DNA of 64,000 nt from NCBI GenBank assembly GCA_963753975.1, contig CAVWEH010000001.1, positions 256,001-320,000 on the forward strand. The letters run 5' to 3'. The position numbers and the translations under genes were made by a program. Shown in pieces: positions 14,875 to 62,755 of this stretch (position 1 is the first letter of the stretch; each line of letters opens with the position of its first letter). The DNA comes from an uncultured delta proteobacterium. GTDB lineage: Bacteria; Desulfobacterota; Syntrophia; Syntrophales; Smithellaceae. The notes under the pieces were generated by a model. It was not told where the DNA came from. It saw nothing but the letters and a program-made list of their open reading frames with translations, and did no database searches.

Positions 14875-15038
14875 TAATGAGACCCAAGTTTCAGAAACAG
14901 AGTGCGCCGAAACTTGCAAATCGAATTAATGACACTCGCTGAAAACGAACTACGTGAAGTTTGAAGTGTAAGTGGAATTAATCCCGCGTGCGAAGCGTAA
15001 GCGGGGCAATACTAAATACCCCGCAGCTTGCTTTGGGG
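14875..15038 (+). repeat. GA-mismatch hairpin element cluster A
   Basis: TAATGAGAC..ATCGAATTA (14875-14928), TAATGACAC..GTGGAATTA (14927-14980), CCCGC-GCGAAGC-GCGGG hairpin and a CCCCGCAGCTTGC palindrome remnant. Confidence 0.75.
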
Positions 15039-15190
15039 TTTATACCCATGGGGCTGCTCTTAAACGGTTTTCTAGTAAATCTATCAGCGGTTAAACTATC
15101 CCGACAATAACATATGATAATCAGGGCAAAATTTATTCTTGCTTGCAGGTTCCTTTCGTGGTTATTTCACCAAGCTATGAAATGGAGTGA

Positions 15191-27873: not shown

Positions 27874-28144
27874 CAGAAATTCCTATTGGAAACTAGATTG
27901 ATTGACAAGAACCTTCTTTTTCCGGCGTGAGAATATACTAAGAACGATCTTGCGAGTCAATGGAATTTTGACCAGAAAATATGGGGTGCGGTGTAGTTGT
28001 TTGTCGTCGGACGTGAACCGTGTTTATTACGGATTGAAGTCTTACCTTTTAATTAAGAAGGATAAAAAATGATACAAAAATGTACGGCAAATATCGCTTG
28101 ACAGACATATAAAAAGGGCATAGCTAGCTCGACAATGTTTTAAC

Positions 28145-28270
28145 AATGCCTAAATCCGTCAGCATTGGATGCGGGGGAACCAAGAGTTTCGGGGCGAATT
28201 TCTTAGCGAGTGAAGAAAGGGACACTTCCATGTCCGAGCCCGTCAGCTAACCTCGTCGGCGTATGGGAGG
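28145..28270 (+). promoter_or_regulatory. Cyclic di-AMP (ydaO/yuaA) riboswitch
   Basis: AATCC..GGAT, CGGGGGAACC, GGGGCGAAT, GGACA..TGTCC, GAGCCCGTCAGCTAACCTCGTCGGCGT match the family pattern; pseudoknot CTTCCA/TGGGAG; upstream of K+ uptake genes. Confidence 0.9.
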
Positions 28271-28278
28271 ATAAAAAA

Positions 28279-34910: not shown

Positions 34911-35064
34911 GTCTCATCCCGCTGGCCTCGGCCACGGGATCAATTCGGCCAACAAATTTCAGCGCACTTCCACCGCTTTGCGGGATAGTTCGTCTAACAG
35001 ATTTCAGTGCGCTTCGCTTCTAAAATCTGGGACTCACTACGTTTTGGAGATTTGAGTCTCATTA
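34911..35064 (-). repeat. GA-mismatch hairpin element cluster B (nested)
   Basis: Reverse complement is near-identical to 42147-42306 apart from two short inserts; it overlaps the radical SAM gene stop. Confidence 0.85.
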
Positions 35065-42078: not shown

Positions 42079-42146
42079 CTTTTGTTCTCCTTTCTTCATT
42101 GTTTCTTTAATGTCTAAAATATAAGGCGCAATTCCGGAATGTCAAT

Positions 42147-42635
42147 CAATGAGACCCAAATTTCCAAAACGTAGTGAGTCCCAGATTTTAGAAGCGAAGC
42201 GCATAACCTAAAGGTCATCTACGACTGAAATCTGTTAGACGAACTATCCCGCAAAGCGGTGGAAGTGCATAACCTGAAGGCCACTGCCGCTGAAGTTTAC
42301 TGGACGTAATGAGACTCAAACTTTAAAAGCGAAGCGTATTAAAGTTTGTTAGTCGAATTATCCAATAGCTAAAGGCTATTGGAAATTATCCCCGAAGCGA
42401 AGCGTAGCGGGATGAGGAGACCAGTAAGCGCAGCTTATTGGGATCAGTACCTTGGTGTAGGTCGAATTAATGAAACTCAGGTATTGCAAGCGAAGTGCAG
42501 CAATATCTGCTAGCTGTAATGAGACTAAAACTTCAAAAGCAAATAACCTAAAGGTCACTATAGGCGCATTGAAGTTTTTTAGCCGAATTATCCAATAGCC
42601 AAAGGCTATTGGAAATTATCCCGCGCCAGTCGGGG
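42147..42635 (+). repeat. GA-mismatch hairpin element cluster C (largest, multiply nested)
   Basis: At least five TA(A/G)TGA-nnn..nnn-GAA(C/T)TA units, three TAACCT(A/G)AAGG inserts and two TCCAATAGC-AAAGGCTATTGGA hairpins. Confidence 0.88.
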
Positions 42636-47970: not shown

Positions 47971-48076
47971 TGAATTCGGTAGCGAGCTCATTCCCCGTTG
48001 CTTGCTGCGGGGGTAAGCGAGCGCATACTGTCCTTAAGAATCGAAGATTATCCGCAACTTGCCGCGGAGAGCTTCA
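47971..48076. repeat. Non-autonomous palindromic element with two CCCCGCAGCAAGCTGCGGGG-type hairpins
   Basis: TTCCCCGTTGCTTGCTGCGGGGG and TCCGCAACTTGCCGCGGA hairpins; TGAA/TTCA ends; related remnant near 15018. Confidence 0.6.
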
Positions 48077-48202
48077 ATCTTCTTATCAGGCAATAAAATA
48101 TTTATACAGTTGAATTATACTATAACGTCATATAAACAAAAAGACAAAAATTTGTTAATTTCAGCGCTGGATTTTTATAGAGAATGTGTTTAAATAAGCT
48201 TG

Positions 48203-48307
48203 CCCCGTTAGAAATGTTGAAATTATTATATACCTGCTATGATTTGTCAGCCGCGACTTTGATTAAAAAATAAAGATTAGCCCCAAGTTATTACATTTCT
48301 AACGGGG
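48203..48307. mobile_element. CCCCGTTAGA-type inverted-end element, copy 1
   Basis: Perfect 15-bp inverted ends CCCCGTTAGAAATGT / ACATTTCTAACGGGG. Confidence 0.75.
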
Positions 48308-48324
48308 TGAAGGAGAAATGAACT

Positions 48325-49326
48325 TTGATTCTTACCGGTAAATTGAAAATTGCCCTGCTGATTTTGCTTACCATTTTTATAGTCGGCACTGTCGGTTTTC
48401 ATTTTATTGAAAAATGGAGTCTTGTCGACTCTTTTTACGTCACAATTACTACTTTATCGACTGTCGGCTACGGTGATTTCGTACCGCAAACGGTGGAAGG
48501 TAAATTTTTTGCAGTTTTTATAATTATTTTCGGCGTAGGCACGATGCTTTATTCATTCGGCCTGATTTCGGAAACAGTAATCGAGGGCCGCTTGCGCGGT
48601 TTATTGGGGAGGGGTAAATTGGAAAAAATAATCGAAAAAATGAATAATCATTATATCATTTGCGGTTGCGGCCGTATCGGTCTTTTGATTTGCCGTGAAT
48701 TGACCGCGGAAAAAGTGTCTTGCCTCGTTATCGATAACAATCCCGAGGTGATTCAGAAGGCACACGATGAAGGATTTATTTACTGCAAAGGGGATGCGAC
48801 CCAGGATAAAACTTTAATCGAAGCGGGAATCAAGCGGGCCAAGGGTATCGTGTGCGTGCTCCCGTCGGATGCAGAAAATCTCTACGTTATCTTGACTGCG
48901 AAGGAACTCAACCATAATATATATATAATGTCGCGTTCCGAAGACGAAGCATCGGAGCACAGGCTTGTCCGGGCGGGAGCCGATAGAGTTATTTCTCCCT
49001 ATAAGCTGGGAGGGGTCAGGATGGCCATGGCCATTTTACGTCCGGCCATGCTGGATTTTATCGAAATAACGAGCCGCAGACAAAGTCTGGAGCTGCGCAT
49101 GGAAGAAATTCCCATTACGCCGGGCTCACAGTTTATCGGCAAGTCGCTGGAAAATTCGGGAATCCGTCAGGACTACGGGCTGATTATTATCACGGTAAAG
49201 AAAGATTCGGGAAAGATGATTTTCAATCCGCAGGCCGACTATGTTATTGCCGAAGGCGACAGATTGATAGCGATGGGTGAGGATGAGAATGTAAAGAAGC
49301 TGATCAAAGCATCTTTACCCCGTTAA
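48325..49326 (+). CDS. Potassium channel protein with TrkA-N/TrkA-C (RCK) domains
   Basis: TVGYGD selectivity filter, ICGCGRIG, GDAT, FNP..D..I..GD. Confidence 0.92.
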   Translation: MILTGKLKIALLILLTIFIVGTVGFHFIEKWSLVDSFYVTITTLSTVGYGDFVPQTVEGKFFAVFIIIFGVGTMLYSFGLISETVIEGRLRGLLGRGKLEKIIEKMNNHYIICGCGRIGLLICRELTAEKVSCLVIDNNPEVIQKAHDEGFIYCKGDATQDKTLIEAGIKRAKGIVCVLPSDAENLYVILTAKELNHNIYIMSRSEDEASEHRLVRAGADRVISPYKLGGVRMAMAILRPAMLDFIEITSRRQSLELRMEEIPITPGSQFIGKSLENSGIRQDYGLIIITVKKDSGKMIFNPQADYVIAEGDRLIAMGEDENVKKLIKASLPR

Positions 49327-49415
49327 AAATTAAATGGCTTATGCTGCACCATGTATATTTTTTGAGAAGTACTAATAACAGGAAAGTTTATAGTATAAAA
49401 TGATTTCTAACGGGG
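49318..49415. mobile_element. CCCCGTTAGA-type inverted-end element, copy 2
   Basis: CCCCGTTAAAAAT ... ATTTCTAACGGGG; the left end contains the K+ channel stop codon. Confidence 0.7.
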
Positions 49416-49423
49416 AGGAAAAT

Positions 49424-50125
49424 ATGAAAAATAATTATTTGTTTATTCTGAAGAGAAGCGCGCTGCTTGTTTTGTTGATAGCTTTCAGTTTGGGTATATT
49501 AGATTGTGGACCTGTTCTCAGCATTTACAGTGTCAATATGCAGTATGACGCGGCCAAGGCAGTTATTCCGGCAGATTTGAAGGCCGGAGAAAAAATGCGC
49601 GACGCCGTAATTACCATCGCGGAATTTACTGATACACGCCAGGTGGATGATAAAAAAATACTCGGCCGGGTGACGGAGAGAGACGGCGTGAAAGCTCTTG
49701 TATTTCCGAAGTATGTTATACCCACGAAAGCCGTTGCTTACGGCATCAAAGATTATTTGACAAAAGCGGGTTATAAGGTTGCCGATAAGATTGCCCAGTG
49801 GGATCTAAAAGAAGAAACGATCCCGAAGGGATCCGGCAAAGTTCTGATAGGCGGGAACATTGAAGAGCTCGAAGCATCCTGCGAGCGCGGTGTTTTTGCG
49901 AACTCTTATAAGATCAGTTTGAAGCTGACCATTGTTTTTGCGGATCCGGCTAAAGGCAAGATATTATATAAAAGCAAAGTGGAGAGCTTGCTTTCCCGGG
50001 ATGATGTTTCCTTTTCCGAACAGTGGTTCGGAGATCAGGCAAGTAGTGTTCTGGGCGACGCCATTGAAAAAGTATTTCAGGAAAAGGCTGTAGCGCAAAA
50101 GATAAAAGAAGCTTTATCCCGGTAG
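49424..50125 (+). CDS. Putative lipoprotein/exported protein (YajG-like)
   Basis: Hydrophobic signal segment followed by Cys; FTDTR motif; GGAGG RBS. Confidence 0.6.
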   Translation: MKNNYLFILKRSALLVLLIAFSLGILDCGPVLSIYSVNMQYDAAKAVIPADLKAGEKMRDAVITIAEFTDTRQVDDKKILGRVTERDGVKALVFPKYVIPTKAVAYGIKDYLTKAGYKVADKIAQWDLKEETIPKGSGKVLIGGNIEELEASCERGVFANSYKISLKLTIVFADPAKGKILYKSKVESLLSRDDVSFSEQWFGDQASSVLGDAIEKVFQEKAVAQKIKEALSR

Positions 50126-50130
50126 ATTAA

Positions 50131-50232
50131 CCCCGTTAGAGATTAATGAACGTACGGGGATTATACTCAGCAAATTTTTTGGGATGATAAATCGTGAGGG
50201 CTATACAATTTCGGCAGTAATTTCTAACGGGG
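50131..50232. mobile_element. CCCCGTTAGA-type inverted-end element, copy 3
   Basis: CCCCGTTAGAGATTA ... TAATTTCTAACGGGG. Confidence 0.75.
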
Positions 50233-50245
50233 TGAACGAGGTTCA

Positions 50246-50337
50246 CCCCGTTTAGAAATTAGATAACTTAAAGCCTCGGAACCTCGAAAATCTCCTCAGG
50301 AGTTATGTTTCTATGAATAGAAAAATTTCTAACGGGG
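50246..50337. mobile_element. CCCCGTTAGA-type inverted-end element, copy 4
   Basis: CCCCGTTTAGAAATT ... AATTTCTAACGGGG; its interior is homologous to 53457-53547. Confidence 0.8.
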
Positions 50338-52388
50338 AAAATATCCCCCGCTACAATCACGCAAACTTTAACGCGGCCTTAGCCCCGAAGGGCAGGTTCC
50401 GCATTCTGCTGCCGCTGATCCTGATGATGATCTTCCTCTCCCCCTTCCCTGTGGTAGCCCAAGACCTTACTTGCAGCGACCTTCCCAAACTGATGGAAGC
50501 ATTCTACGCCAAACACTACGTGATGAAGAGTACCACCCCGGAGATCAGGATGCACGCTGTGGACCAGATGGTCAAGCGCCTTGATCCCTCTAAAACGCTG
50601 CTGTACGAGTCTGATTTGAAAAAGCTCAAACCGCTTCTCGCGGACCTGTTTGAAGGCGCGGGAAAAGGCAACTGCGCCTCGCTCCAGTCGGTTTATGACC
50701 TGCTTGTTGCCCGGGTACGGGAGAATGAAACCATCGTCAAAAAGATTCTGGGGCCGGACTTCCGTCTGGACATGATGACGGAGCTGAATATCAACGTGGA
50801 CAAACGCCCCTATCTGAAGACAATGACAGAAAAGCAGGGGCTTCTGAAAAAGATCGTGCAATTCCAGATCGAAAACTCACTGCTCGCCGGCATTGACCTG
50901 GCAACAGCTAAAAAGAAGCAGATACACCGCTACGAGTTACAGACGATGCGGGTGGTTGAGCAAAATCCCGCCGAGCTCATTACAACCTCCGCCGAGGCCT
51001 TCGCCCTGGCCCTGGATCCGCACACCAGTTACCTGCCCCCCAAAGAGCTTGAGGATCTCCAGATTCAGATGAATCTTTCTCTGGAGGGGATCGGGGCTAT
51101 TCTGAGCAGCGACACCGGCTTTACCATTATTGAAGAATTGGTTCCCGGGGGCGCCGCTGAGAAAACCGGTCTGTTGAAGCCAAAGGATAAAATCATCGCC
51201 GTGGCTCAGGAAGGGGAAATGCCCGTTGACGTCATCGACATGGATCTGCGCGACGTTATCAGCATGATCCGCGGCAAGAAAGGCACACGAGTAACCCTAA
51301 CGATCCTGCGGCAGGGGAAGCGCAAGGAGCGCTTTGATGTAACCATCACGCGCGACAAGATCGACGTGAAGGAGCAGGAGGCGAAGATCACCTACGAGAT
51401 TCGGAAAGTGAGCGGAAGGCAGTATCGCTTCGGTGTAATCGATCTTCCTTCCTTTTACGGCGGCGAAAAGGGCGGCAAATCCAGTTACGAAGACGTGAAA
51501 AAACTTCTTGCCGAGGCAAAAAGACAGCGAGTGGACGGCATCGTGCTGAACCTGTCGCGCAACGGCGGTGGGCTGCTCGAAGAGGCGGTGCGCCTTACCG
51601 GCCTTTTTATTGGTAATGGTGGAATAGTAGCGGTCAAGGACAGCCAGGGGCGGGAGACGATTCTTGCCAATGGTTCTGCCGCATCGGGAAAGGACGGTGA
51701 CGAACGCCGCATCAATGCGGCCCCTGCGGAGGATCCACGGGCACTCTACCTGGGCCCCCTTGCCGTTCTGACGAGCCGCCTCAGTGCGTCGGCAAGCGAA
51801 ATAGTCGCGGGCGCTCTGCAAGATTACCACCGTGCGGTGATCGTCGGCTCGGACCATACCTTCGGCAAGGGTTCCGTGCAGGCGCTAATGCCGCTGCCCT
51901 GGGAGCTTGGCGCAATGAAGGTCACAACGGCGTTATACTTCCTGCCCGGCGGCAAATCGACGCAGAAGACGGGTGTGATGGCGGATGTCAGGCTGCCCGG
52001 CTGGTTTGTATTAGAAGATATCGGTGAAGCGGCGCTGGACTATCCGCTGCCGGCTCAGGCGATCGAGCCCTTCCTGGGCGTGCGGGAGAAAGCTGCGCCG
52101 CATTGGAAGTCTGTTGACGAGCCACTGATCGCAAGGCTTTCGTCCAAATCGCAGAGCCGCGTGGCGAAAAACGCAAAGTTTGCCAAAATCATCAAAGACA
52201 ACAAAGAAGCCGCGGAAAAGAAGGGCATCATCCAGCTTGATGATTTACGCAAGACGATAAAGGACGAAGACGCAGACATTGAGAATGAAACGCGTTCCGA
52301 ACAAAGGCAAAAGGCCCGGGAGCAGTATGCGCCTTTTGTAAACGAGAGCGTCAACATCCTGCTCGACGAAGTAGTGAGACTCAACTGA
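50313..52388 (+). CDS. prc: Carboxy-terminal processing protease (S41A, Prc/Tsp family)
   Basis: LDPHTSY, LEGIGA PDZ, NGGGLL, SASASEI, TFGKGSVQ. Confidence 0.88.
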   Translation: MNRKISNGENIPRYNHANFNAALAPKGRFRILLPLILMMIFLSPFPVVAQDLTCSDLPKLMEAFYAKHYVMKSTTPEIRMHAVDQMVKRLDPSKTLLYESDLKKLKPLLADLFEGAGKGNCASLQSVYDLLVARVRENETIVKKILGPDFRLDMMTELNINVDKRPYLKTMTEKQGLLKKIVQFQIENSLLAGIDLATAKKKQIHRYELQTMRVVEQNPAELITTSAEAFALALDPHTSYLPPKELEDLQIQMNLSLEGIGAILSSDTGFTIIEELVPGGAAEKTGLLKPKDKIIAVAQEGEMPVDVIDMDLRDVISMIRGKKGTRVTLTILRQGKRKERFDVTITRDKIDVKEQEAKITYEIRKVSGRQYRFGVIDLPSFYGGEKGGKSSYEDVKKLLAEAKRQRVDGIVLNLSRNGGGLLEEAVRLTGLFIGNGGIVAVKDSQGRETILANGSAASGKDGDERRINAAPAEDPRALYLGPLAVLTSRLSASASEIVAGALQDYHRAVIVGSDHTFGKGSVQALMPLPWELGAMKVTTALYFLPGGKSTQKTGVMADVRLPGWFVLEDIGEAALDYPLPAQAIEPFLGVREKAAPHWKSVDEPLIARLSSKSQSRVAKNAKFAKIIKDNKEAAEKKGIIQLDDLRKTIKDEDADIENETRSEQRQKAREQYAPFVNESVNILLDEVVRLN

Positions 52389-52640
52389 AAACGAGCACAG
52401 CAAAGGTTGAAGTGTTAGTCGAACTAATGAAACTCCAATTTCGAAAGCGAAGCACATAGAAATTGGATAGTTGAATTATCCCCGCCATAGGCGGAGGATA
52501 TCGAAGATATCTGTGATATCCCCGAAGCAAAGCGTAGTGGGGTAGTGAGTCCCAAGTTTTAGAAGCGTAGCGCACTGAAATTTGTTGGACGAACTATCCC
52601 CGAAGCAAAGCGTAGTGGGGTAATGACACTCGCTAAAACA
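52372..52640 (+). repeat. GA-mismatch hairpin element cluster D
   Basis: Units at 52372-52426, 52425-52478 and 52543-52596, partial unit from 52621; 28-bp direct repeat TATCCCCGAAGCAAAGCGTAGTGGGGTA (52517, 52595). Confidence 0.85.
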
Positions 52641-52812
52641 GCACCTTTTGGCGTTGTATATCTGTTAGGCAATTGTTCCCATAAAAGGTACATTTAGTGA
52701 ATAATAAGACAATGCGTCCTGGGGGATATTCAAAAACAAATAATTGTCCGAAAATTTAGTTGGTGCACAAAATGCACATTGCAAATAATAATAAGCTTGG
52801 GGATAGCAGGAC

Positions 52813-53195
52813 GTGACTGAAAAAAATATCATAATGCAAGATACAAAAGGGCAAGTGGTTTTATACAAGAACCGGCTGGAAGTCCGTTTAGAAAAGGATA
52901 CTGTCTGGTTAAGCCTGAGTCAATTGGTAGATTTATTCGAACGTGACAAGTCCGTTATCTCAAGACATTTACTCAATATATTTAAATCAAAGGAGTTAGA
53001 CAAAGCATCAACTGTTGCATATTTTGCAACAGTTCAAAAAGAGGGTGGTCGAATTATTGAACGGAATATCGAATATTTCAACTTAGATGCAATCATCTCT
53101 GTTGGCTATCGTGTTAATTCAATTCGAGGCACTCAATTCCGCATTTGGGCAACAAATGTTTTGCGGCAGCATCTGGTTGCCGGTTATACCATTTA
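52813..53195 (+). pseudogene. Truncated RhuM/virulence-family (Fic-associated) DNA-binding protein
   Basis: TVWLS...LF, ISRHL.NIF, FNLDAIISVGYRVNS.RGTQFRIWAT; family-like sequence stops at GYTI, exactly where CCCCGTTAGAG begins. Confidence 0.75.
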
Positions 53196-53565
53196 CCCCG
53201 TTAGAGGCGAATATTTATGCATTATGTGTACGTGCTTAAGAGCATAAAAGACAAAAAAATGTATACGGGGTGCACAGAGGATTTACGGAAGCGTTTTCGT
53301 GAGCATAATATTGGGAAGGTTAATTCCACAAAAGGGCGAGGGCCTTTTGAATTAATATACTATGAGGCCTCGTCAGATAAAACAGATGCTTTTGCCCGAG
53401 AGAAATATCTGAAATCAGGGATGGGGAAAGATCATGTTCTATGTAAAGGGGATTTACCCCGTTAGAAATTGCCTAACTTAAAGCTCCAGAACTTAGAAAA
53501 CCTCCTCAGGAGTTAGTTTTATATGAATAAAAAGATTTCTAACGGGGAAAAAATCTCTAACGGGA
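53196..53565. mobile_element. CCCCGTTAGA-type element enclosing a GIY-YIG gene and a nested element copy
   Basis: Left end CCCCGTTAGAG (53196), right end CTCTAACGGGA (53555-53565); nested copy at 53457-53547. Confidence 0.65.
53217..53465 (+). CDS. Small stand-alone GIY-YIG nuclease (C-terminus possibly altered)
   Basis: YVYVL..YTG.T.DL..R..EHN, LIYYE, A..RE.YLKSG. Confidence 0.88.
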   Translation: MHYVYVLKSIKDKKMYTGCTEDLRKRFREHNIGKVNSTKGRGPFELIYYEASSDKTDAFAREKYLKSGMGKDHVLCKGDLPR

Positions 53566-54245
53566 TAAAAAGCTGGCCCAAGGACGACCGGCCGAGGGAG
53601 AAACTGCTTAAGCGCGGCGCAGGCACTTTGAGCAACTCCGAGCTTCTGGCGATACTTCTGCGCACCGGAGTTAAAGGCAACAGCGCCATTGATCTCGCGA
53701 GAAAAATACTTAGTAAATTCGATACATTTCGCAATATGAGCCACTCTGATATCCGCGATTGGAAAGAATTTAAAGGTTTAGGCCCCGCCAAAATTGCACA
53801 AATAAAAGCCGCGTTGGAAATCGGCAGGCGTTTCCGTGAAGATGAAGTAGTGAGTGTCAAGCAAAAAATTGCCACGGCCGGGGATGTCGTCGATATCATT
53901 ATGCCGCAAATGCGCGACCTCAAGACGGAGGTCTTTAAAGTTGTCTACCTCAACAGCAACAACGGAATAATTGATATTGCCGATGCGGCTCAAGGCACTG
54001 TAAATCAGGCCGCGCCGATTGTCCGGGAAATTATTCATACGGCATTACAAAAATTTGCCGCCTCTATTATTTGTGTTCACAATCACCCCAGCGCGAATAT
54101 TGCACCCAGCCCGGAAGACAAAAAAATAACGGCGGAGTTATCAGCCGCATGCAAGCTGATGGGAATCAGAATGCTGGATCATATCATCATCGGCGACGGT
54201 AGCTACTTTAGTTTTACAGATGAGGGAATGCTTGAATCAATATGA
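53523..54245 (+). CDS. radC: RadC family JAB-domain protein
   Basis: RPREKL, ELLAILLRTG, GLGPAK, HNHPS..PS.ED, LDHIIIG. Confidence 0.93.
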   Translation: MNKKISNGEKISNGIKSWPKDDRPREKLLKRGAGTLSNSELLAILLRTGVKGNSAIDLARKILSKFDTFRNMSHSDIRDWKEFKGLGPAKIAQIKAALEIGRRFREDEVVSVKQKIATAGDVVDIIMPQMRDLKTEVFKVVYLNSNNGIIDIADAAQGTVNQAAPIVREIIHTALQKFAASIICVHNHPSANIAPSPEDKKITAELSAACKLMGIRMLDHIIIGDGSYFSFTDEGMLESI

Positions 54246-57037
54246 TTAAGAGCGAAGCTCAAACCAGAAAAGAGATTATTGATAAACGGCTCTTGCAGGT
54301 TGGCTGGAATGTGAAGAATCCTCTTCACGCCACGGAGGAGTTAAGTATTTGGATTGGTTTGCAGGAAGGCGTGCATGAGCCGCAGACTATTTATCAGGGG
54401 CAGCTTTTTGTAGATTATGCACTTCTTGGTGAAGATGGCACGCCGGTTGCTGTTGTAGAAGCGAAAAAGACTTCAACTGAGGCGGAGCGAGGCAAAGAGC
54501 AGGCGCGTAATTATGCTGAGAAAATTCAGAAAAATCACGGCGGGCCTATACCCTTCGTTCTTTACACAAACGGCTACGACATTTTCTTCTGGGATACAGA
54601 TCGTTACCCACCCCGCAAGGTTTACGGATTTCCATCAAAAGCCGACTTGGAGCGCATCCAATTTTTGCGTGATAACAGCAGACCTCTATCCAGTGAATTA
54701 ATCAATACTATAATAGCTGGAAGGCCATACCAAATAGAGGCAATTCGTTCTGTTTTGGAAGCTCTGGAAAAGAAACGGCGTAAATTTCTCTTGGTTATGG
54801 CAACTGGCACAGGCAAAACACGCACCTGCATGGCGCTGCTTGATGTTCTAATGCGCACTAATTGGGTTCAGCGCGTTTTATTTCTTGTGGATCGCATCGC
54901 TTTACAGGAGCAAGCACTTGATACATTCAAGGAGTATCTACCTAATGCGCCTATATGGCCAAAGCAAGGTGAAAAAGAATTTGTGACAGATCGGCGTGTC
55001 TATGTATCAACTTATCCGACAATGCTCAATATCATTGAACAGGAAAATTGTCCGCTGACAGCTCATTTTTTCGATCTGATTGTTGCTGATGAAAGTCATC
55101 GTTCCATTTATAACGTTTATAAAAATATTTTCGAGTATTTTGATTCCGTACAGCTAGGGCTTACGGCTACGCCGAAGGATCATGTTGACCACAATACTTT
55201 CTCGCTTTTTGAATGCGACAACGGATTGCCGACATTTGCTTATTCGTATGAAGAAGCAATCAATAACATCCCGGCTTATTTATGTGATTTTGAAGTATTG
55301 AAAATAAGAACAAAATTTCAACAAGAAGGCATTAATAGTAAGACAATTGCGGAACACGACAGAAAGAAACTATTAATTGAAGGTCGTGATCCGGATGAAA
55401 TCAGCTTCGAAGGAACAGAGCTGGAGATAAAAGTATCCAACAAAGGCACTAATGCGCTCATTGTCCGCGAGTTTATGGAAGAGTGTATTAAAGACGCAGA
55501 TGGCGTGCTGCCCGGTAAAACCATCTTTTTTGCGTTATCTAAAAAGCATGCATATCGGCTCTGTGAAGTATTTAACGCTCTATATCCCGAATATAAAGGA
55601 CAGCTCGCCGAAGTAATCATTTCCGACGTAAAGGGAGTGCACGGCAAAGGAGGCATTCTTGACCGTTTCAAAAACAACGACATGCCACGTATTGCTATAA
55701 GCGTTGACATGCTAGATACCGGCATTGATGTGCGGGAAGTTGTAAATCTGGTTTTTGCCAAGCCTGTTTTCTCCTACACAAAATTTTGGCAGATGATTGG
55801 CAGAGGTACCCGTGTTCTTGATCCTGAAAAGATCAAACCCTGGTGTCCATCCAAAGATAAATTTCTGATCATGGACTGCTGGGATAATTTTGAATATTTC
55901 AAAATGAATCCCAAAGGCAAAGAGCAGAAGCCTACCCGGCCTCTTCCCGTAAGATTGTTTGAAGCCAGGTTGGACAAACTGCAAGCGGCGCTGGAAATGC
56001 AGGATGAAACAATATCTCAAAAGACCGTACAGCAAATCAAAAAAGATATTGATTTACTTCCAGCCAACTCCGTTATTGTTCTTGATGGGAAAGAATACAT
56101 CGATTATGCGCAAGACGTATCTTTCTTTAGTAAAATTACACCGGAAGCAGTCGGATTTCTGCGGCAAAATGTTGCGCCAATTATGCGGGCAAAATCTGAT
56201 GCTGATTTTAAAGCCATGCATTTTGAATTGAATGTTGTAGAGGTATCGACAGCTCATCTTGTAAAAGATAAAGAACGTTTTGAGGTATTGAAAGAAGGTT
56301 TAGTCGAAATCATTAGTGAACTTCCGCTTTCGGTAAATATTGCTGCTAAACAACAAGCGTATATTGAAAAAGTGACCGGTAATAATTTTTGGCACACCCT
56401 GGTAGATAATGATTTTGATGAAATGGTGGTCAGGCTTGCCCCGTTGATGAAGTTCAGGGAGCAGGACAAAATAATTGAAGTTAAAACGGATTTAACCGAT
56501 CTTCTAACTGTTAAAGAATATATAGAGTTTGGGCCAGAACATGAACGGCTGACGATTAATAAATATCGTCAGAAGGTTGAAGAATTAATCAGGGAAATGG
56601 TTAAAACCAATAAATCTCTGCAAAAAATAATTGCTGGTGAAGATTTAACCAATCAAGAGATAGAAGAACTTGCAACAATCCTGCGCGACAAATATCCCAA
56701 TGTCACGGAATTAATACTACAAGAGATTTATGATAACCGTAGTGCCAAATTTATTCAGTTTATCAAGCATGTGCTTGGGCTGGAACCATTGGAGACCTTT
56801 ACGGAGAAAGTATCGTTTGCCTTTGATGAATTTATCCGGGCGCACAACAACTATGGACAACAACAAATTCAATTTTTGCAGACATTAAAAACATTCGTTC
56901 TACAAAAAGGCAAAATTGAGAAAAGCGATTTAGTCCATGCGCCATTTACGCAACTACACCCACAGGGGATTCGCGGTGTATTTAAACCTGGCGAAATTGA
57001 CGAAATTATAAACCTGACGCAGAAGCTTGCGGCATAA
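54242..57037 (+). CDS. hsdR: Type I restriction enzyme R subunit (EcoEI/EcoAI-like)
   Basis: DY..VVEAK nuclease motif, MATGTGKT, DESH, QMIGRGTR, C-terminal PFT..P.G. Confidence 0.93.
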   Translation: MIKSEAQTRKEIIDKRLLQVGWNVKNPLHATEELSIWIGLQEGVHEPQTIYQGQLFVDYALLGEDGTPVAVVEAKKTSTEAERGKEQARNYAEKIQKNHGGPIPFVLYTNGYDIFFWDTDRYPPRKVYGFPSKADLERIQFLRDNSRPLSSELINTIIAGRPYQIEAIRSVLEALEKKRRKFLLVMATGTGKTRTCMALLDVLMRTNWVQRVLFLVDRIALQEQALDTFKEYLPNAPIWPKQGEKEFVTDRRVYVSTYPTMLNIIEQENCPLTAHFFDLIVADESHRSIYNVYKNIFEYFDSVQLGLTATPKDHVDHNTFSLFECDNGLPTFAYSYEEAINNIPAYLCDFEVLKIRTKFQQEGINSKTIAEHDRKKLLIEGRDPDEISFEGTELEIKVSNKGTNALIVREFMEECIKDADGVLPGKTIFFALSKKHAYRLCEVFNALYPEYKGQLAEVIISDVKGVHGKGGILDRFKNNDMPRIAISVDMLDTGIDVREVVNLVFAKPVFSYTKFWQMIGRGTRVLDPEKIKPWCPSKDKFLIMDCWDNFEYFKMNPKGKEQKPTRPLPVRLFEARLDKLQAALEMQDETISQKTVQQIKKDIDLLPANSVIVLDGKEYIDYAQDVSFFSKITPEAVGFLRQNVAPIMRAKSDADFKAMHFELNVVEVSTAHLVKDKERFEVLKEGLVEIISELPLSVNIAAKQQAYIEKVTGNNFWHTLVDNDFDEMVVRLAPLMKFREQDKIIEVKTDLTDLLTVKEYIEFGPEHERLTINKYRQKVEELIREMVKTNKSLQKIIAGEDLTNQEIEELATILRDKYPNVTELILQEIYDNRSAKFIQFIKHVLGLEPLETFTEKVSFAFDEFIRAHNNYGQQQIQFLQTLKTFVLQKGKIEKSDLVHAPFTQLHPQGIRGVFKPGEIDEIINLTQKLAA

Positions 57038-57061
57038 AGTAAATAGTAAGGAATAGTTGTT

Positions 57062-58612
57062 ATGTTGATGCCCGAAATGAAATCTCTGATCAATGCTCTA
57101 TGGGACAAATTCTGGAGTGGCGGCATATCTAATCCGCTTACCGCAATTGAGCAAATATCTTATCTGCTATTCATGCGCCGTCTGGATGAAATGGATACAA
57201 AACTAGTAAATGACGCCGAGTTTACGGGCGATAATTATAACTCCATTTTCAAGGGGAAGTTTAAACTGCCATCGGGTGAAACCATTGATAAAAAAACTTT
57301 ACGCTGGAGTCACTTCAAACAGATGGAAGGCGGTGAAATGCTCCGTCATGTGCAAATCAATGTATTTCCATTCATTAAGCAGCTTAATGGTAGTAATACA
57401 ACCTTCACGAAACATATGGAAGACGCTGTGTTTATTATACCTAAAGCTTCGCTTCTAGTGGAAGCAGTCATCATTATCGACCGGCTATATGATGAAATTG
57501 AAAAACAGATGCAGTCTGGTCAAATTTTTCATGACACGCAGGGCGATATGTATGAATTTTTGCTTTCTGAAATTGCTACTTCCGGTAAAAACGGACAGTT
57601 TCGCACGCCACGCCACATCATTGCGCTCATGTGCGAGCTTGTTGACCCGAGGATTCCAGATTTGGTTTGTGATCCTGCCTGCGGTACCAGCGGTTTTTTG
57701 CTCGGCGCTTATCAACACATCCTTACCCAACATACGAGTAAGGAGAATCTTTTTATCGATGAAAATGGTTTTACCCGCGGTAGCCTGGGTGACAAGCTTA
57801 CTGACAAAAAGCTCTGGAAGCATTTGAAAGAGACAACTTTTTACGGGTATGATTTTGACTCAACCATGGTGCGTATCGGCCTTATGAACATGATTCTGCA
57901 TGGCATTACCAATCCCAATATTAAGCGGAAAGACACGCTTTCCAAAAAATATAACGAAGACAATAAATACAACTGTATCTTTGCCAACCCGCCATTCAAA
58001 GGCAGCATTGACAAAGGGGATATCAACGAAACCCTATCACTTGCGACTACCAAGACAGAACTTTTATTTGTCAATCGCATTATTAATTCTTTGCGCATCG
58101 GCGGCCGTGCAGCGGTGATTGTGCCGGATGGCGTGCTCTTTGGTTCAAGCAACGCGCATAAAGATTTGCGCAAAATGCTTATTGAAAAGTGCGAACTTCA
58201 GGGCGTAGTATCCATGCCCAGTGGTGTGTTCAAACCCTATGCCGGAGTGAGCACAGCGATTATTGTTTTTGTAAAAGGTGGCACAACAGAAAAAGTTTGG
58301 TTCTACGACATGCAGACCGACGGATTTTCACTGGATGACAAAAGAGAGAAAATCGAGGCAAATGATCTGCCGGATATTGTAAAGAATTGGAAAGTTCGCA
58401 ACAAAAGCAAAAGCGATAACCGCACAGCCAAACACTTCTTTGTGCCTGTAAAAGAAATCATTGATAACGGTTTTGACCTTTCCATCAATCGCTATAAAGA
58501 AACCATATATATTACAACTGAGTATGAGAAGCCGAAAGTGATTTTGGGAAAGATTGAAGCTATTGAGAAGGAAATAATGGATGGGATCAAAGAATTAAAG
58601 AAGATAATGTAA
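57062..58612 (+). CDS. hsdM: Type I RM methyltransferase subunit (N6-adenine)
   Basis: GQFRTPRH, DPACGTSGFL, ANPPF, VPDGVLF. Confidence 0.95.
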   Translation: MLMPEMKSLINALWDKFWSGGISNPLTAIEQISYLLFMRRLDEMDTKLVNDAEFTGDNYNSIFKGKFKLPSGETIDKKTLRWSHFKQMEGGEMLRHVQINVFPFIKQLNGSNTTFTKHMEDAVFIIPKASLLVEAVIIIDRLYDEIEKQMQSGQIFHDTQGDMYEFLLSEIATSGKNGQFRTPRHIIALMCELVDPRIPDLVCDPACGTSGFLLGAYQHILTQHTSKENLFIDENGFTRGSLGDKLTDKKLWKHLKETTFYGYDFDSTMVRIGLMNMILHGITNPNIKRKDTLSKKYNEDNKYNCIFANPPFKGSIDKGDINETLSLATTKTELLFVNRIINSLRIGGRAAVIVPDGVLFGSSNAHKDLRKMLIEKCELQGVVSMPSGVFKPYAGVSTAIIVFVKGGTTEKVWFYDMQTDGFSLDDKREKIEANDLPDIVKNWKVRNKSKSDNRTAKHFFVPVKEIIDNGFDLSINRYKETIYITTEYEKPKVILGKIEAIEKEIMDGIKELKKIM

Positions 58613-58613
58613 G

Positions 58614-59771
58614 ATGCGACTAGTGAACATTACTGAAGCAGTTGAAAATACAAATAGCCGTGTTAAACCATTTACTGGCCAGCGCCAATATATGGCTACC
58701 GGCGATTTATCTAAAAACAAAATTAATGAAATGATGGCAGTTGACTATGAAACAAAACCAAGTCGTGCTGATTTACTTGTAAATGCTGGCCAAATTATTT
58801 TGGCGCGCATGAAAGCCACAAATAAAGTTCTTTTAATTGATCAATCCAGTAAAGATTTTATTGTTTCCACTGGGTTTATAACACTTACGCCAAAGAAAGG
58901 GTTCAATTCTGGTTATCTATCTCATTATTTTAAGTCTGGTTTTTTTCAATCACAAAAAGATAAATATTGTACTGGTGCAACTCAAAAAGCAATAAACAAT
59001 ACTTCCTTAAAAAAAATAAACGTTCCTTATTGTTCTATAGATGAACAACAAAAAATAGCTGCTATTCTCGACCAAGCCGATGCCCTGCGGAAAAAGCGCC
59101 AAGAGTCGCTCCGACTTCTGGATGCGCACTTGAAGTCGATGTTTCTGGAGATGTTCAAAAAAGGAACCCTTAATTGGAAAATCTGTAAAATAAAAGATAT
59201 TGCTGAGAATAAAAAAGGAAGCATGAGGACGGGCCCGTTTGGAAGCAGTCTGCTACATAGTGAATTTGTAGAAGAAGGCATAGCTGTACTCGGCATTGAC
59301 AATGCTGTGGAGAATAAATTCTTATGGAAAGAAAGAAGATATATTACTAAAGAGAAGTATTCTCAGCTGAAACAATACACCGTTCGTCCTGGTGATATTA
59401 TTATTACTATCATGGGAACATTAGGTAGATCCGCAGTGATTCCAGAAAATATTCCTCTTTCTATAAATACAAAGCATTTAGCTTGTATTACTTTAAGTAG
59501 AGAAATTGCTAATCCATATTTTATTAATTACACATTCCAATCTGATCCGGACGTAATTCGTCAGCTAAGTGGGAAGAAACGTGGCGCTATTATGGATGGA
59601 TTAAATCTGACGATAATTAAAGAATTAGACATAAAGTTGCCTCCTTTAGCATTGCAGGAAAAGTTTGTTACGATATTGAAAAAGGTCGAATTTCAAAAAG
59701 ATCAAATGAATAAATCCCTCACCGAAATTGACACTCTCTTCAACGCTCTTTCACAACGGTATTTCGGGTGA
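58614..59771 (+). CDS. hsdS: Type I RM specificity subunit
   Basis: Two TRDs with conserved EQQKIAAILD and PPLALQEKF helices. Confidence 0.92.
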   Translation: MRLVNITEAVENTNSRVKPFTGQRQYMATGDLSKNKINEMMAVDYETKPSRADLLVNAGQIILARMKATNKVLLIDQSSKDFIVSTGFITLTPKKGFNSGYLSHYFKSGFFQSQKDKYCTGATQKAINNTSLKKINVPYCSIDEQQKIAAILDQADALRKKRQESLRLLDAHLKSMFLEMFKKGTLNWKICKIKDIAENKKGSMRTGPFGSSLLHSEFVEEGIAVLGIDNAVENKFLWKERRYITKEKYSQLKQYTVRPGDIIITIMGTLGRSAVIPENIPLSINTKHLACITLSREIANPYFINYTFQSDPDVIRQLSGKKRGAIMDGLNLTIIKELDIKLPPLALQEKFVTILKKVEFQKDQMNKSLTEIDTLFNALSQRYFG

Positions 59772-59890
59772 AGATAAAGATGGTTGGTGAATTTATTTCA
59801 AAGAGATCATGGCAACCATCAACGGCGATAGGAATTTATAGTGGATAATTAGCTGCGACATTCAAACAAACGAGTAAATAGGATTAGCGC

Positions 59891-60718
59891 GTGCAACGGC
59901 TTAATGTGAGACAATCTCAGATTAGAGAATGTATTGAAAAATCGCTCTTCGCGATTGATCAAACACCGCATTTCCATAAAGGGGAAATCCTTCTTTTACA
60001 ACTCGTTAAAACTGAAGCTCAAGGTTTAGGCAAACTGCGCGCGCGAATTGAATTTGCGCTCGTCTATGACCGCTACGAAGCTGACTATGCAGGCGAGATA
60101 AGTCGTCAACATTGGCCGCAGGCGGGAAAGACATGGAAATATATTCTTGTTTGTTCCGATACAATACCCACTATTCCATTTAGTCTGGAAGAGCTGCAAC
60201 TTTCAAATAAGTATGCAGGCCAAACCAATCCTCTGGCAATTAGTCAAGAAGACGAAGTTGTAATATCTCCTTATGTGTGGGGTAAATTAACCGGCTACGA
60301 ACTCAGGGATACGTTTGGCCCGAGTTTGGTTAAAGAAACACTTGGTAATTATGACGTGATTACACATCCCAAAAAGCAAAAAAAGATTATTGTTCCTGAA
60401 CACGAAGAATTCTATCGCGATCCCTTTTTATCCGAATCTTTAAAAGCGCTTTATGATCACAGATGCCAGGTTTGCGGAATGAATTTTAGAATTAAGTACG
60501 AAGAGCCATTTGCAGAAACTCATCATATTGATTCTTTGAGTAGCGGAGGATTGGATATCAGCAAAAATATTATTGTCACCTGCCCGAATCATCATCGAAT
60601 AATCCACAAAACTAGCGCTGAATTTGATCGCGCAAAACTTTTATACAAATATCCAAATGGATTAGAAGAGCGGTTAGTATTAGCTGATCACTTCGAACAA
60701 AAATCATTTTGGGCGTAG
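59891..60718 (+). CDS. HNH endonuclease with uncharacterised N-terminal domain
   Basis: CQVCG..ETHHI..L..GG...NIIVTCPNHH. Confidence 0.82.
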   Translation: MQRLNVRQSQIRECIEKSLFAIDQTPHFHKGEILLLQLVKTEAQGLGKLRARIEFALVYDRYEADYAGEISRQHWPQAGKTWKYILVCSDTIPTIPFSLEELQLSNKYAGQTNPLAISQEDEVVISPYVWGKLTGYELRDTFGPSLVKETLGNYDVITHPKKQKKIIVPEHEEFYRDPFLSESLKALYDHRCQVCGMNFRIKYEEPFAETHHIDSLSSGGLDISKNIIVTCPNHHRIIHKTSAEFDRAKLLYKYPNGLEERLVLADHFEQKSFWA

Positions 60719-60796
60719 GCGCGAAAAAAACACAAAAAACGTTATTAATCAATATATTCGACATATTGCCGTATATTGACAGGCCTGGCAGGAAAT

Positions 60797-60843
60797 CAAA
60801 TTAGCGGCAATTTATTTGACTTATTGCCGATAATTTGTATACT
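60797..60843 (+). promoter_or_regulatory. Sigma70-type promoter with flanking inverted-repeat operator
   Basis: TTGACT (60816)-16 bp-TATACT; IR CAAATTAGCGGCAAT / ATTGCCGATAATTTG (1 mismatch). Confidence 0.7.
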
Positions 60844-61590
60844 AGCGCAAGGAGGCTTAGTAAAAAAACGGATAATTTATTTAAACATTTTGAAAATCGG
60901 GAATCGTTTACCACAAATGAAATTTTCGGTTTTTTCTCTCAAACACAGCCCAATATTAAAAAAGCAACCGTAAATTGGCGGATTTACAATCTTGTCCAAA
61001 AGGGTTTATTAAGAAAAATCGGTCGCGGAATATATTCTTTAGGCAAAGAAAATTGTTTCTCTCCAATTCTTGACAAGAAACAAAAAAATATTTTCGTCCT
61101 GATTAAAAAGCAATTCCCTCTTATCACCTTTTGCTGTTGGCATACTGCTTTGTTAAAAGAATTTTTTCAGCATGTATCAGTGTATGATTTTCTACTGGTC
61201 GAAGTGGAACGCGAAGCAATAGATTCCGTTTTTCTTTCTATCAAAGAGACTAACAAAGACACTTTCAAAGAACCGTCGCGCGATGTGATGGAAAATTATG
61301 TATTCAATGGCAAAGACGCTATAATTGTTAAATCCCTGATCAGCGAAGCTCCTCTTCAGGATATTGATAATATAATTGTGCCGACTATAGAAAAGATTCT
61401 TGTTGATTTATACGCAGATCGTGAAATTTTCTTTTTCCTGCAAGGCAATGAAATGCTGAGCATCTTCAAAAGCGCGCTGGGAAAATATACGGTTAATACG
61501 GACAGGCTTTTGCGTTACGCAAAAAGAAGGAATAAGAGAGAAGAACTGCAAAAAATATTAGCCCAAATAAACGGCAAAAATAGGGAATAG
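60835..61590 (+). CDS. AbiEi-like antitoxin / transcriptional regulator (DUF6577-like); start uncertain
   Basis: wHTH TVNWRIYNLVQKG..IGRGIY, LISEAP, PTIEKILVD, LLRYAKRR. Confidence 0.75.
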   Translation: MYTSARRLSKKTDNLFKHFENRESFTTNEIFGFFSQTQPNIKKATVNWRIYNLVQKGLLRKIGRGIYSLGKENCFSPILDKKQKNIFVLIKKQFPLITFCCWHTALLKEFFQHVSVYDFLLVEVEREAIDSVFLSIKETNKDTFKEPSRDVMENYVFNGKDAIIVKSLISEAPLQDIDNIIVPTIEKILVDLYADREIFFFLQGNEMLSIFKSALGKYTVNTDRLLRYAKRRNKREELQKILAQINGKNRE

Positions 61591-61605
61591 TGCCAAAAAT
61601 TTGAT

Positions 61606-62679
61606 ATGATTTCAAAAGACGCATTAAAACCGGAATGGATAAAGAAGGTATCTGCCGAAAACCGCAAGGCAGATAAGATTCTTGTTGAAAAAGTCATCCG
61701 CGCTTTGCTTCTTCTGGAAGGTCTTGCGGAAACCGGCTTGCCCTTTGTTTTTAAAGGCGGCACTTCCGTAATGCTGCTTCAGAAAATTCCCCGAAGATTT
61801 TCCATTGACATTGATATAATCGTACCGGAGAAGAAAAACTTTGAAGCGCTTTTTGCAAAATTCATTAAAGAGAAAAGCTTCACCAGATTTGAGTTTCAGA
61901 AAAGAGATTCGTCTTCAGAAATCAATAAACTCCACTACAAGTTTTTTTATACTCCTGCACATCAAAAGAATATTGCCGAAGACAATATCATGCTCGATAT
62001 TCTTATAGAATCATCAAAATACCAAAACGTTATTTCCCGAGACATTGATTTGTCGTTTGTCAAACAGGACGGATCACCTGCTCAGGTAAAAATTCCCAGC
62101 AAAGAAGATATTCTGGGCGATAAACTGACCGCCTTTGCGCCAAACACTACGGGAATTCCCTACCAAAAGAGCGGCTTTAGTATGGCCATGGAGATTATAA
62201 AACAATTATACGATATAGGGAATCTGTTCGAAGATATCAGCGATATAAAAGTGGTTGCCGAAACATTTAAAAATATCGCACAAACGGAAATGAAATACCG
62301 CGGACTTACGAAAGATGTAAAAATTGTATTGGATGATATTTTAGCCACAGCGCTTTGCCTCGCCACCAGGGGTAAGTCAGGCAAAGGTGACTTTGCGGCC
62401 CTGCAAAACGGTATATCGCAGACCAGAGCTTATATTTTCTCCGAAAGTTACCACATAGAAAAAGCCATTGTTCATGCGGCGCGCGCGGCGTATCTGACAA
62501 AACTCATTGATACCGGCGCCAATAAATTTGTCCGTTTTGAAAATGCCCAACAAATACTTGATTGGCAAATCGAAGCGCCGTTGGACACAAAGCTTAACAA
62601 ACTCAAGAAGAGCAACCCCGAGGCATTTTTCTATTGGTATCAGTTTTATTTGATAAATAAACGGGGCGACACAATTTAG
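61606..62679 (+). CDS. AbiEii/AbiGii family nucleotidyltransferase toxin
   Basis: FVFKGGTS, RRFSIDIDI, GDKLTAF, KQLYD. Confidence 0.88.
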   Translation: MISKDALKPEWIKKVSAENRKADKILVEKVIRALLLLEGLAETGLPFVFKGGTSVMLLQKIPRRFSIDIDIIVPEKKNFEALFAKFIKEKSFTRFEFQKRDSSSEINKLHYKFFYTPAHQKNIAEDNIMLDILIESSKYQNVISRDIDLSFVKQDGSPAQVKIPSKEDILGDKLTAFAPNTTGIPYQKSGFSMAMEIIKQLYDIGNLFEDISDIKVVAETFKNIAQTEMKYRGLTKDVKIVLDDILATALCLATRGKSGKGDFAALQNGISQTRAYIFSESYHIEKAIVHAARAAYLTKLIDTGANKFVRFENAQQILDWQIEAPLDTKLNKLKKSNPEAFFYWYQFYLINKRGDTI

Positions 62680-62755
62680 AAAGTATAACGTGGGCAATTA
62701 TATTTAATTGCTGAAACAATCGGGGACAGGTACAATTTTGAGACTAGGAGGATAA

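What the first reader, a model, noticed from the sequence alone, without database searches (positions are those of the whole stretch)
42147..42635. Family of covarying hairpin units with tandem GA mismatches and GNA loops: candidate structured ssDNA mobile elements
Seen: a ~54-nt unit recurs in four clusters (14875-14980, 34917-35064 on the minus strand, 42147-42635, 52372-52640). Its frame is TA(A/G)T-GA-xyz ... x'y'z'-GA-A(T/C)TA. The pairings covary: GAC/GTC (42307, 52372), GTC/GAC (42172, 52543), AAC/GTT (52425), CAC/GTG (14927), and TAAT/ATTA versus TAGT/ACTA. The opposed GA/GA mismatch never changes. The inner stems also vary compensatorily (CAAGTTTC/GAAACTTG, CAAACTTTAA/TTAAAGTTTG, CCAATTTC/GAAATTGG). 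The loops carry GCGAAGC, GCGTAGC or GCGCAGC. Established: tandem sheared GA pairs and C(GNA)G triloops are exceptionally stable in DNA. Inference: selection acts on a folded single strand, probably DNA, recognised by a trans-acting enzyme such as an HUH/Y1 transposase or small nuclease. I do not recognise this as a named family.
Basis: partly seen in the sequence, partly recalled or inferred. Interest (0 to 1): 0.85.

Follow-up and report, generated by a model that had tools for sequence, protein, structure and literature searches.

The report
Gene-less hairpin mobile DNA in Smithella
The repeated hairpins are the left ends of a family of tiny gene-less mobile DNA elements, common in Smithella-type anaerobic bacteria, that look built to move as folded single-stranded DNA, but the enzyme that moves them was not found.

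Summary
Observation confirmed. The genome holds 221 unit hits in 130 clusters, with none in a reversed control. Stems covary strongly (18 of 20 pairs). GA/GA is kept in 99 of 114 units.

The unit is the left end of a 79-370-base gene-less element: long hairpin, small hairpin, third hairpin, then TGAT/TGGT. Of 18 readable empty/filled junctions, 16 show no target duplication and 9 follow TTAT. Copies nest in each other. The family is in 61 of 91 family genomes, 0 of 393 other genomes of the phylum sample, and as a shorter variant in a Desulfobulbaceae bin.

There is no Rfam match, no tie to transcription direction and no G-U excess, so folded ssDNA fits better than RNA. It works like a PATE (gene-less IS200/IS605 derivative, peel-and-paste).

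Membership is unproven. None of 82 Y1 loci has these ends, this genome has no Y1, Y2, IS110 or IS630 hit, no left guide was found, and there is no replichore bias. The scan noted this family before on other DNA, also without an enzyme.

The parts
14875..14928 (+). left-end hairpin unit (hp1), TAA class
14927..14980 (+). hp1 of the CAC subfamily, with a second tandem GA/GA replacing two Watson-Crick pairs in the inner stem
   Evidence: GA/GA at 15-16/37-38 in 7 of 65 seeds
14981..15006 (+). small hairpin hp2 (ATCCCG...CGGG)
15016..15052 (+). CTTG-loop hairpin like IS200 right ends, then a decayed right end (CCCATGG); the G064 orthologue has an intact CCCGTGGT here
34916..35064 (-). outer hp1 (35064-34942) interrupted in its loop by an inserted hp1+hp2 module (about 35039-34969), followed by hp2; it starts on the stop codon of the radical SAM gene. 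G064 carries a different, complete element at the same site
42140..42145 (-). host TTGACA (-35-like box upstream of the superoxide dismutase gene); the cluster starts beside it. Empty in G026 and G015, and filled with different elements in G064, G067, G059, G066 and G065
   Evidence: promoter role is inference
42147..42635 (+). compound cluster: at least six hp1 units or halves, nested hp1+hp2 modules inserted at G|AA, and hp2 hairpins at 42246, 42360, 42388, 42590 and 42618; no intact right end
42205..42217 (+). core of the 18-21-nt ACC-TRAA-GGT micro-module nested in an hp1 loop (others at 42271-42283 and 42545-42557)
   Evidence: 67 copies genome-wide
52372..52640 (+). cluster of three hp1 units, hp2 hairpins and a truncated fourth unit; it supplies the last codons and stop of the S41 protease ORF (50313-52388). 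Absent at this site in G059 and G067

Best explanation
The units are the left-end module of a gene-less, modular mobile element that moves as single-stranded DNA, PATE-style, using an HUH (Y1-type) transposase supplied in trans. SHOWN: the element runs from 2-3 nt before TGA, through hp1 (4-bp closing stem, tandem GA/GA, 4 bp, 2-nt 3' bulge, 10-bp stem, mini-hairpin loop), hp2 and hp3 (GGGTA...TACCC), to G-TGAT or G-TGGT. It inserts 3' of a T-ending 4-mer, mostly TTAT, without a detectable target duplication. It has no terminal inverted repeats. It is present or absent between congeneric genomes. Copies insert into one another (at GAAT|T, and as hp1+hp2 modules at G|AA), which makes the chains and nests. 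INFERRED: the folded top strand is the substrate. An HUH enzyme cuts 3' of the host 4-mer and 3' of TGRT, the strand circularises and inserts at a new NNAT/TTAT site. The GA/GA plus bulge base of hp1 is the recognition signal, because it survives in the shortened Desulfobulbaceae variant while the upper stem and loop do not. The transposase comes and goes, leaving orphan copies, as for the IS200-type PATE family in this same TnpA-less genome.
For: Ends and target: (16 of 18 readable junctions with no duplication; TTAT in 9 of 18; T last in 17 of 18). The base after TGRT varies: T55, C12, A7, G2 of 76. This is the IS608 pattern of insertion 3' of a retained host tetranucleotide (PMC3201880, passages) and the PATE definition (PMC3119063, passages). 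TTTAT is a known TAM (bioRxiv 2023.03.14.532601, passages). The 4 nt at the 5' foot of hp3 are CGGA in 118 of 124, and they pair with TGRT by the IS608 guide scheme. Positions 1-2 of that scheme come from PMC5934647; position 4 is recalled. The variable base of TGRT is the one left unpaired. DNA-type motifs: GNA triloops (PMC13037366, passages) and pyrimidine-GA-purine tandem sheared pairs (PMC10085684, passages). G.T 22 versus A.C 29 mismatches on the top strand. An internal 21-nt hairpin matches IS200 right ends at 19-20 of 21 bases (E 0.004-0.05). An IS200-derived PATE family also persists here without TnpA.
Against: No autonomous partner: 0 of 82 Y1 loci has these ends (71 of the 258 family matches plus 11 from three outlier genomes). 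Unit-rich genomes G000, G059 and G025 have no Y1 hit. No left-end guide fits the IS608 scheme: hp1 starts at the cut site, not about 19 nt inside. Only 1 nt separates hp3 from TGRT, against a cut 10 nt from the foot in IS608, and the minimal hp3 has a 5-bp stem. There is no orientation bias to replichore (64:47, p=0.13). The left end comes in two registers (12 versus 4 junctions) and the target is loose. hp1+hp2 modules appear to move without the TGRT end. A 1-nt T duplication cannot be excluded.
Confidence: 0.55

Rival explanations
1. The elements are moved by an enzyme outside the Y1 family, or by a housekeeping enzyme, that reads the GA/GA-bulge hairpin base. They would be a separate ssDNA mobile class like the SMR-A repeats of Haloquadratum, whose mobilisation is unexplained.
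For: No cognate Y1 was found. Geometry departs from IS608 at both ends. Sub-modules insert at G|AA inside other units. Copy number runs from 0 to 188 with no shared Y1 type seen among the richest genomes. SMR-A elements also lack duplications and target palindromes (PMC3119063, passages).
Against: No candidate gene recurs beside 274 sites. IS91, IS110, IS630 and RT hits are patchy over 5 unit-rich genomes (1, 2, 1 and 2 of 5). The TAM/TEM-like ends are exactly what IS200/IS605 elements show.
Confidence: 0.2
2. The elements are REP/BIME-like repeats spread by the family's RAYT (TnpA-REP).
For: Smithellaceae have a RAYT clade with GTAG REPs whose 5' end (AAYGTAGT) resembles the hp1 loop, and the micro-module nests in those REPs too. 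The clustered mosaic layout is BIME-like.
Against: Units lack a GTAG tag and are not arranged as inverted pairs (64 of 64 clusters on one strand). They do not flank the RAYT genes. The genome has 0 such REPs and an empty RAYT locus. RAYT-bearing G107 and G080 have 0 units.
Confidence: 0.1
3. Spread and covariation arise without a dedicated enzyme: template switching and gene conversion between copies homogenise the stems and build the chains.
For: Orthologous sites often carry different unit sets. There are tandem arrays (C4:307575) and chimeric junctions.
Against: Precise insertions at new, unrelated sites with fixed ends. GA/GA and the bulge are preserved rather than corrected. A variant has expanded in a distant Desulfobulbaceae bin.
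Confidence: 0.08
4. The unit is a structured non-coding or cis-regulatory RNA, or moves through an RNA intermediate.
For: The top strand folds slightly better than the bottom in both RNA and DNA models (46-47 of 65). Many copies follow terminators or stop codons.
Against: No Rfam family. Orientation is unlinked to neighbouring genes (50 same/same, 39 opposite/opposite, 23 divergent, 18 convergent of 130; crude ORF calls). There is no G-U excess. Loops are triloops, which suit DNA. An RT was found in only 2 of 5 unit-rich genomes.
Confidence: 0.07

Closest known systems
PATEs, gene-less derivatives of IS200/IS605 elements (Haloquadratum, PMC3119063; ISGst PATE-like elements, bioRxiv 2023.03.14.532601)
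   Same: No terminal inverted repeats, palindromes near both ends, no target duplication, too short to code, short host target motif at the left, strain-specific insertions, targeted by other small repeats.
   Different: No parent IS with the same ends was found. The left hairpin is long (about 50 nt), begins at the cut site and carries a conserved tandem GA/GA and bulge. The element is modular and self-nesting, with many compensated subfamilies (mean 18 of 54 mismatches between units).
IS608/ISDra2 peel-and-paste transposons (PMC3201880, PMC5934647)
   Same: Insertion 3' of a host tetranucleotide, own tetranucleotide at the right end, a guide-like 4-mer at the 5' foot of the right hairpin.
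   Different: No tnpA or tnpB; spacing differs at both ends; no left guide identified; loose target; no replichore bias detected.
REP/BIME with RAYT (PMC8266576 abstract; PMC6006769 and PMC3733652 passages)
   Same: High-copy intergenic ssDNA hairpins with bulges, in mosaics.
   Different: No GTAG or CGTC tag, head-to-tail rather than inverted, not flanking the family's RAYT, which has its own REPs.
SMR-A repeats of Haloquadratum (PMC3119063 passages); Nostoc small dispersed repeats
   Same: Small, no target duplication, insert into hairpins of other elements, mechanism unknown.
   Different: SMR-A have terminal inverted repeats and are homogeneous. The resemblance fits the nested modules more than the full element.
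IS630-type MITEs (ERIC, Correia, RUP; recalled)
   Same: Apparent TA at both ends of the commonest unit.
   Different: The TA is part of a variable closing stem, not a duplicated target, and the full element has no terminal inverted repeats.

Membership tests
PATE (IS200/IS605 derivative) | no terminal inverted repeats; palindromes near both ends; too short for a transposase | tested here: met
   (96-nt element folds into three hairpins, z -4.97); element lengths 79-373 nt
PATE (IS200/IS605 derivative) | no target site duplication | tested here: met
   16 of 18 readable junctions, of 32 pairs examined; 4 of the 18 are tandem self-comparisons; 2 fit a 3-4-nt loss; a 1-nt T duplication cannot be excluded
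PATE (IS200/IS605 derivative) | insertion 3' of a conserved host 4-5-mer | tested here: met
   loosely: TTAT 9 of 18, T-ending 17 of 18; left flanks
PATE (IS200/IS605 derivative) | ends shared with an autonomous tnpA/tnpB element | tested here: inconclusive
   0 of 82 Y1 loci read, but 187 of 258 family matches were not read; only an internal 21-nt hairpin matches IS200 ends
IS200/IS605 | guide 4-mer at the 5' foot of each hairpin that pairs with the cleavage site | tested here: inconclusive
   right end fits (CGGA 118 of 124) but with a 1-nt spacer and no covariation to test; no left guide found
IS200/IS605 | orientation bias to the lagging-strand template | tested here: not met
   64:47 of 111 clusters, 19 ambiguous, p=0.13, by local GC skew on a 6-contig draft; weak test
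IS200/IS605 | strand-specific cleavage and circle formation by TnpA | not testable with these tools
   only contigs of distant relatives were available
REP/BIME-RAYT | GTAG (or CGTC) tag at the foot of the palindrome | tested here: not met
   GTAG occurs only in some loops (6 of 65)
REP/BIME-RAYT | copies flank a cognate RAYT gene | tested here: not met
IS630-type MITE | terminal inverted repeats and TA duplication | tested here: not met
   no DDE_3 hit in this genome
described structured RNA family | Rfam match | tested here: not met
   window, gathering; 4 loci, E up to 1; no hit on the elements

The most novel reading that the evidence does not exclude
A distinct class of ssDNA mobile elements whose identity signal is a three-dimensional DNA feature (tandem sheared GA pairs plus a bulge at the very end), not a sequence. 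It is moved by an enzyme that is not an IS200/IS605 TnpA or a RAYT, can transpose whole elements and hp1+hp2 sub-modules, and has crossed between bacterial orders.
Probability: 0.2. Interest if true: 0.8.

Novelty: new variant of a known kind. Interest (0 to 1): 0.52.

Why it matters
This is a rare genomic case of strong compensatory evolution on a DNA fold rather than an RNA fold. It includes a natural swap of two Watson-Crick pairs for a tandem GA/GA pair, which shows those pairs are under selection in vivo. The defined ends, target and thousands of natural variants make it a ready substrate set for asking what HUH transposases recognise, and for finding the missing enzyme. The elements also reshape promoters, terminators and protein C-termini in syntrophic bacteria. 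If the mover is an ordinary TnpA, the result is a well-defined new PATE family of moderate interest.

Tried and rejected
1. 'TA duplication / IS630 MITE': rejected.
2. My own idea that the 3 nt before TGA are host target read by a variable internal guide: rejected. Empty sites show these bases belong to the element.
3. Y1 genes lying near units (L109, L114, L115, L318): separate insertions. L114 and L115 were read in full and have their own ends. L109 and L318 were judged by coordinates.
4. Smithellaceae RAYT as cognate: has its own REPs and is absent here.
5. IS91, IS110, IS630 and RT loci of five unit-rich genomes: no shared ends among 25 loci. The single RT here looks retron-like and was not found in G059, G040 or G002.
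6. Neighbour-gene clustering at 274 sites and a HUH-motif scan of this genome's 90-420-aa ORFs (8 hits, none transposase-like by eye): nothing.
7. Viral contigs, plasmids and phages: no match.
8. Metagenome scan for the short variant: 2 loci, both gene-less.
9. Sequencing runs: no RNA holder listed, only small-share contigs. Laying four runs gave joints among repeats that cannot be interpreted.
10. Paper searches with no relevant hit: (0 papers). One search found 119 papers; none of the 10 listed mentions Smithella. One search did not return the Elhai paper. ISfinder and R-scape were not available. Supplements were not read.

Full report
**Observation.** The four clusters are as described. 61 of 184 are fully paired, against 0-1 in three shuffles. 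An HMM from 65 seeds finds 240 hits, 221 of them at 15 bits or more, in 130 clusters, and none in the reversed genome. The top mutual-information column pairs are the predicted base pairs, and every one of 64 multi-unit clusters lies on a single strand. On 80 units (6 from the window and 74 of 127 from relatives), 94.6% of cells pair and 18 of 20 pairs change on both sides. The covariation score is 0.557, against 0.222 shuffled and 0.04-0.10 when slid. With a model that omits the GA columns, GA/GA stands in 99 of 114 units, and 10 exceptions are GT where another unit sits at G|AA.

**Anatomy.** Reading all 130 clusters and 76 GTDB loci shows that the unit (hp1) is the first module of a larger element. 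hp1 has a 4-bp closing stem, tandem GA/GA, 4 bp, a 2-nt 3' bulge, a 10-bp stem and an R-C-[RNA]-G-Y mini-hairpin. It is followed by hp2 (ATCCCGC...GCGG), hp3 (GGGTA...TACCC, loop 3-59 nt) and G-TGAT or G-TGGT. A minimal copy folds into these three hairpins (z -4.97). The three bases before TGA vary (TAA, CAA, TAG, TTG, TCG) and pair with the three after GAA, so the apparent TA ends are not a duplication. Chains and nests come from full elements inserted at GAAT|T of another copy, from hp1+hp2 modules inserted at G|AA, and from an 18-21-nt micro-module in loops (67 cores in this genome). Three of the four window clusters lack an intact right end; the fourth has a decayed one.

**Mobility and ends.** About 0.95 Mb of three congeneric genomes was fetched, plus pattern loci. 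159 complete-looking elements gave 32 candidate empty/filled pairs. 18 have 3 or fewer mismatches over the 18 junction bases. Of these, 12 fit an element starting 3 nt before TGA, 4 fit one starting 2 nt before, and 2 fit a 3-4-nt loss. Four of the 18 are tandem self-comparisons, and 14 pairs were too diverged to read. The host 4-mer to the left is TTAT in 9 of 18 and ends in T in 17. The base after TGRT is T, C, A or G in 55, 12, 7 and 2 of 76. A one-base T duplication cannot be excluded. For the window's sites, the sod site is empty in G026 and G015 and filled with different elements in five congeners. The 52372 site is empty in G059 and G067. The 34917 site holds a different element in G064.

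**Distribution.** A relaxed pattern hits 61 of 91 family genomes at 0-188 copies and 0 of 393 non-family genomes in a phylum sample. Record titles are mostly Smithella, Smithellaceae, Syntrophaceae or unclassified Deltaproteobacteria, so the family name is inferred from these titles and from earlier notes. Four loci have other titles. One Desulfobulbaceae bin carries at least 19 copies of a shorter variant that keeps the closing stem, GA/GA, the next 4 bp, hp2 and hp3 but not the mini-hairpin; 1 of 301 genomes of its order matched the exact pattern. Bin contamination was not excluded for these outliers. Earlier notes report the family in Bacteroidales; none of my 76 loci had such a title.

**DNA or RNA.** There is no Rfam match. 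Orientation is unlinked to flanking genes (50/39/23/18 of 130, crude ORF calls). Top-strand stems have 22 G.T and 29 A.C mismatches, so neither strand shows RNA-like wobble preference. 7 of 65 seeds replace two stem pairs by a second tandem GA/GA in a T-GA-A context. GCGNAGC mini-hairpins are far more stable as DNA than the RNA counterpart tested (PMC13037366, passages). Tandem sheared G:A pairs in pyrimidine-GA-purine are a known DNA motif (PMC10085684, passages). Folded ssDNA is therefore the better reading; it is an inference, not a measurement.

**Mechanism.** Insertion 3' of a retained host 4-mer, an own 4-mer at the right end, no duplication and hairpin ends are the IS608 pattern (PMC3201880, passages) and the PATE definition (PMC3119063, passages; PMC7290912, passages). 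In IS608 the guide's first two bases pair with the first two of the cleavage site (PMC5934647, passages); the pairing of the fourth bases is recalled. CGGA at the 5' foot of hp3 (118 of 124) fits TGRT by that scheme, and the autonomous IS200 ends read obey it too. A hairpin often found in the hp3 loop matches IS200 right ends at 19-20 of 21 bases, a weak link. Against membership: hp1 begins at the cut site and shows no left guide, hp3 is 1 nt from TGRT, there is no replichore bias (64:47, p=0.13), and sub-modules move without the TGRT end.

**The enzyme was not found.** This genome has no Y1 hit, no tblastn remnant from 81 HUH-motif frames, and no IS91, IS110 or IS630 hit. Of 258 Y1 matches in 86 of 116 family genomes, 71 were read, plus 11 from three outlier genomes. 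None is bounded by these ends. The family's RAYT has its own GTAG REPs and is absent here. No gene family recurs beside 274 sites except 3 dissimilar GIY-YIG genes. Absence is weak evidence: a second, plainly IS200-like PATE family (window 47971-48078; 11 further hits; ends similar to IS200 loci) also survives in this TnpA-less genome, and multi-copy IS are often lost from assemblies.

**Comparison and novelty.** It works like a PATE, but membership of the IS200/IS605 family is not established. It fails the tests for REP/RAYT, IS630 MITE and Rfam RNA. Searches found no description of the family; that library lacks most subscription papers, and ISfinder was not available. Earlier notes of this scan describe the same family on other DNA, with PATE, REP, BOX or Nostoc-repeat analogies and no enzyme. 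They gave me the PATE lead and the family name, and are not independent support.

**Verdict.** A real, undescribed family of modular gene-less hairpin elements under selection as folded ssDNA. It is most likely moved by an HUH transposase in trans (0.55), with an unknown enzyme as the main alternative (0.2). New variant of a known kind; interest 0.52.

Noticed in passing
window 47971-48078: A second repeat family with two CTTG-loop hairpins and a TTCAA end, like IS200 ends in relatives; 11 further hits in this TnpA-less genome. A conventional-looking IS200 PATE.
   Followed up: partly
window 48203-53547: Nine copies of CCCCGTTAGA (0.09 expected), several as inverted pairs. Two flank a small GIY-YIG ORF (53217-53465) that follows a RhuM fragment. 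The same repeat lies beside a GIY-YIG gene in G067 and at the empty 52372 site in G059. Possibly a nuclease-repeat system.
   Followed up: partly
L121 (G040:C22), L118, L307-L309, L311, L312, L314: A Smithellaceae RAYT clade flanked by GTAG REPs. The 18-21-nt micro-module nests in those REP loops as well as in hp1 loops. The locus is empty in this genome.
   Followed up: partly
G000:C4:299091 and G064:C1: A third gene-less element (GTGGAGCC start, GCGGGAT-like end), absent at the orthologous site, into which hp1 units have inserted.
   Followed up: no
G000:C4:307575: Tandem array of four near-identical 94-nt full elements.
   Followed up: partly
G000:C5:209974 and many others: Elements start right after a tRNA-like CCA end or a terminator T-tract. 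Several start on the upstream gene's stop codon.
   Followed up: no
window 28137-28276: c-di-AMP riboswitch upstream of kdpABC-kdpD; ordinary.
   Followed up: no
window 52813-63097: Defence-like island: RhuM fragment, RadC, type I R-M genes, HNH, DUF6577 with an AbiEii-type partner, ArsR.
   Followed up: no
L343 (G000:C2:427937-431470): Single retron-like reverse transcriptase with an upstream HTH gene.
   Followed up: no
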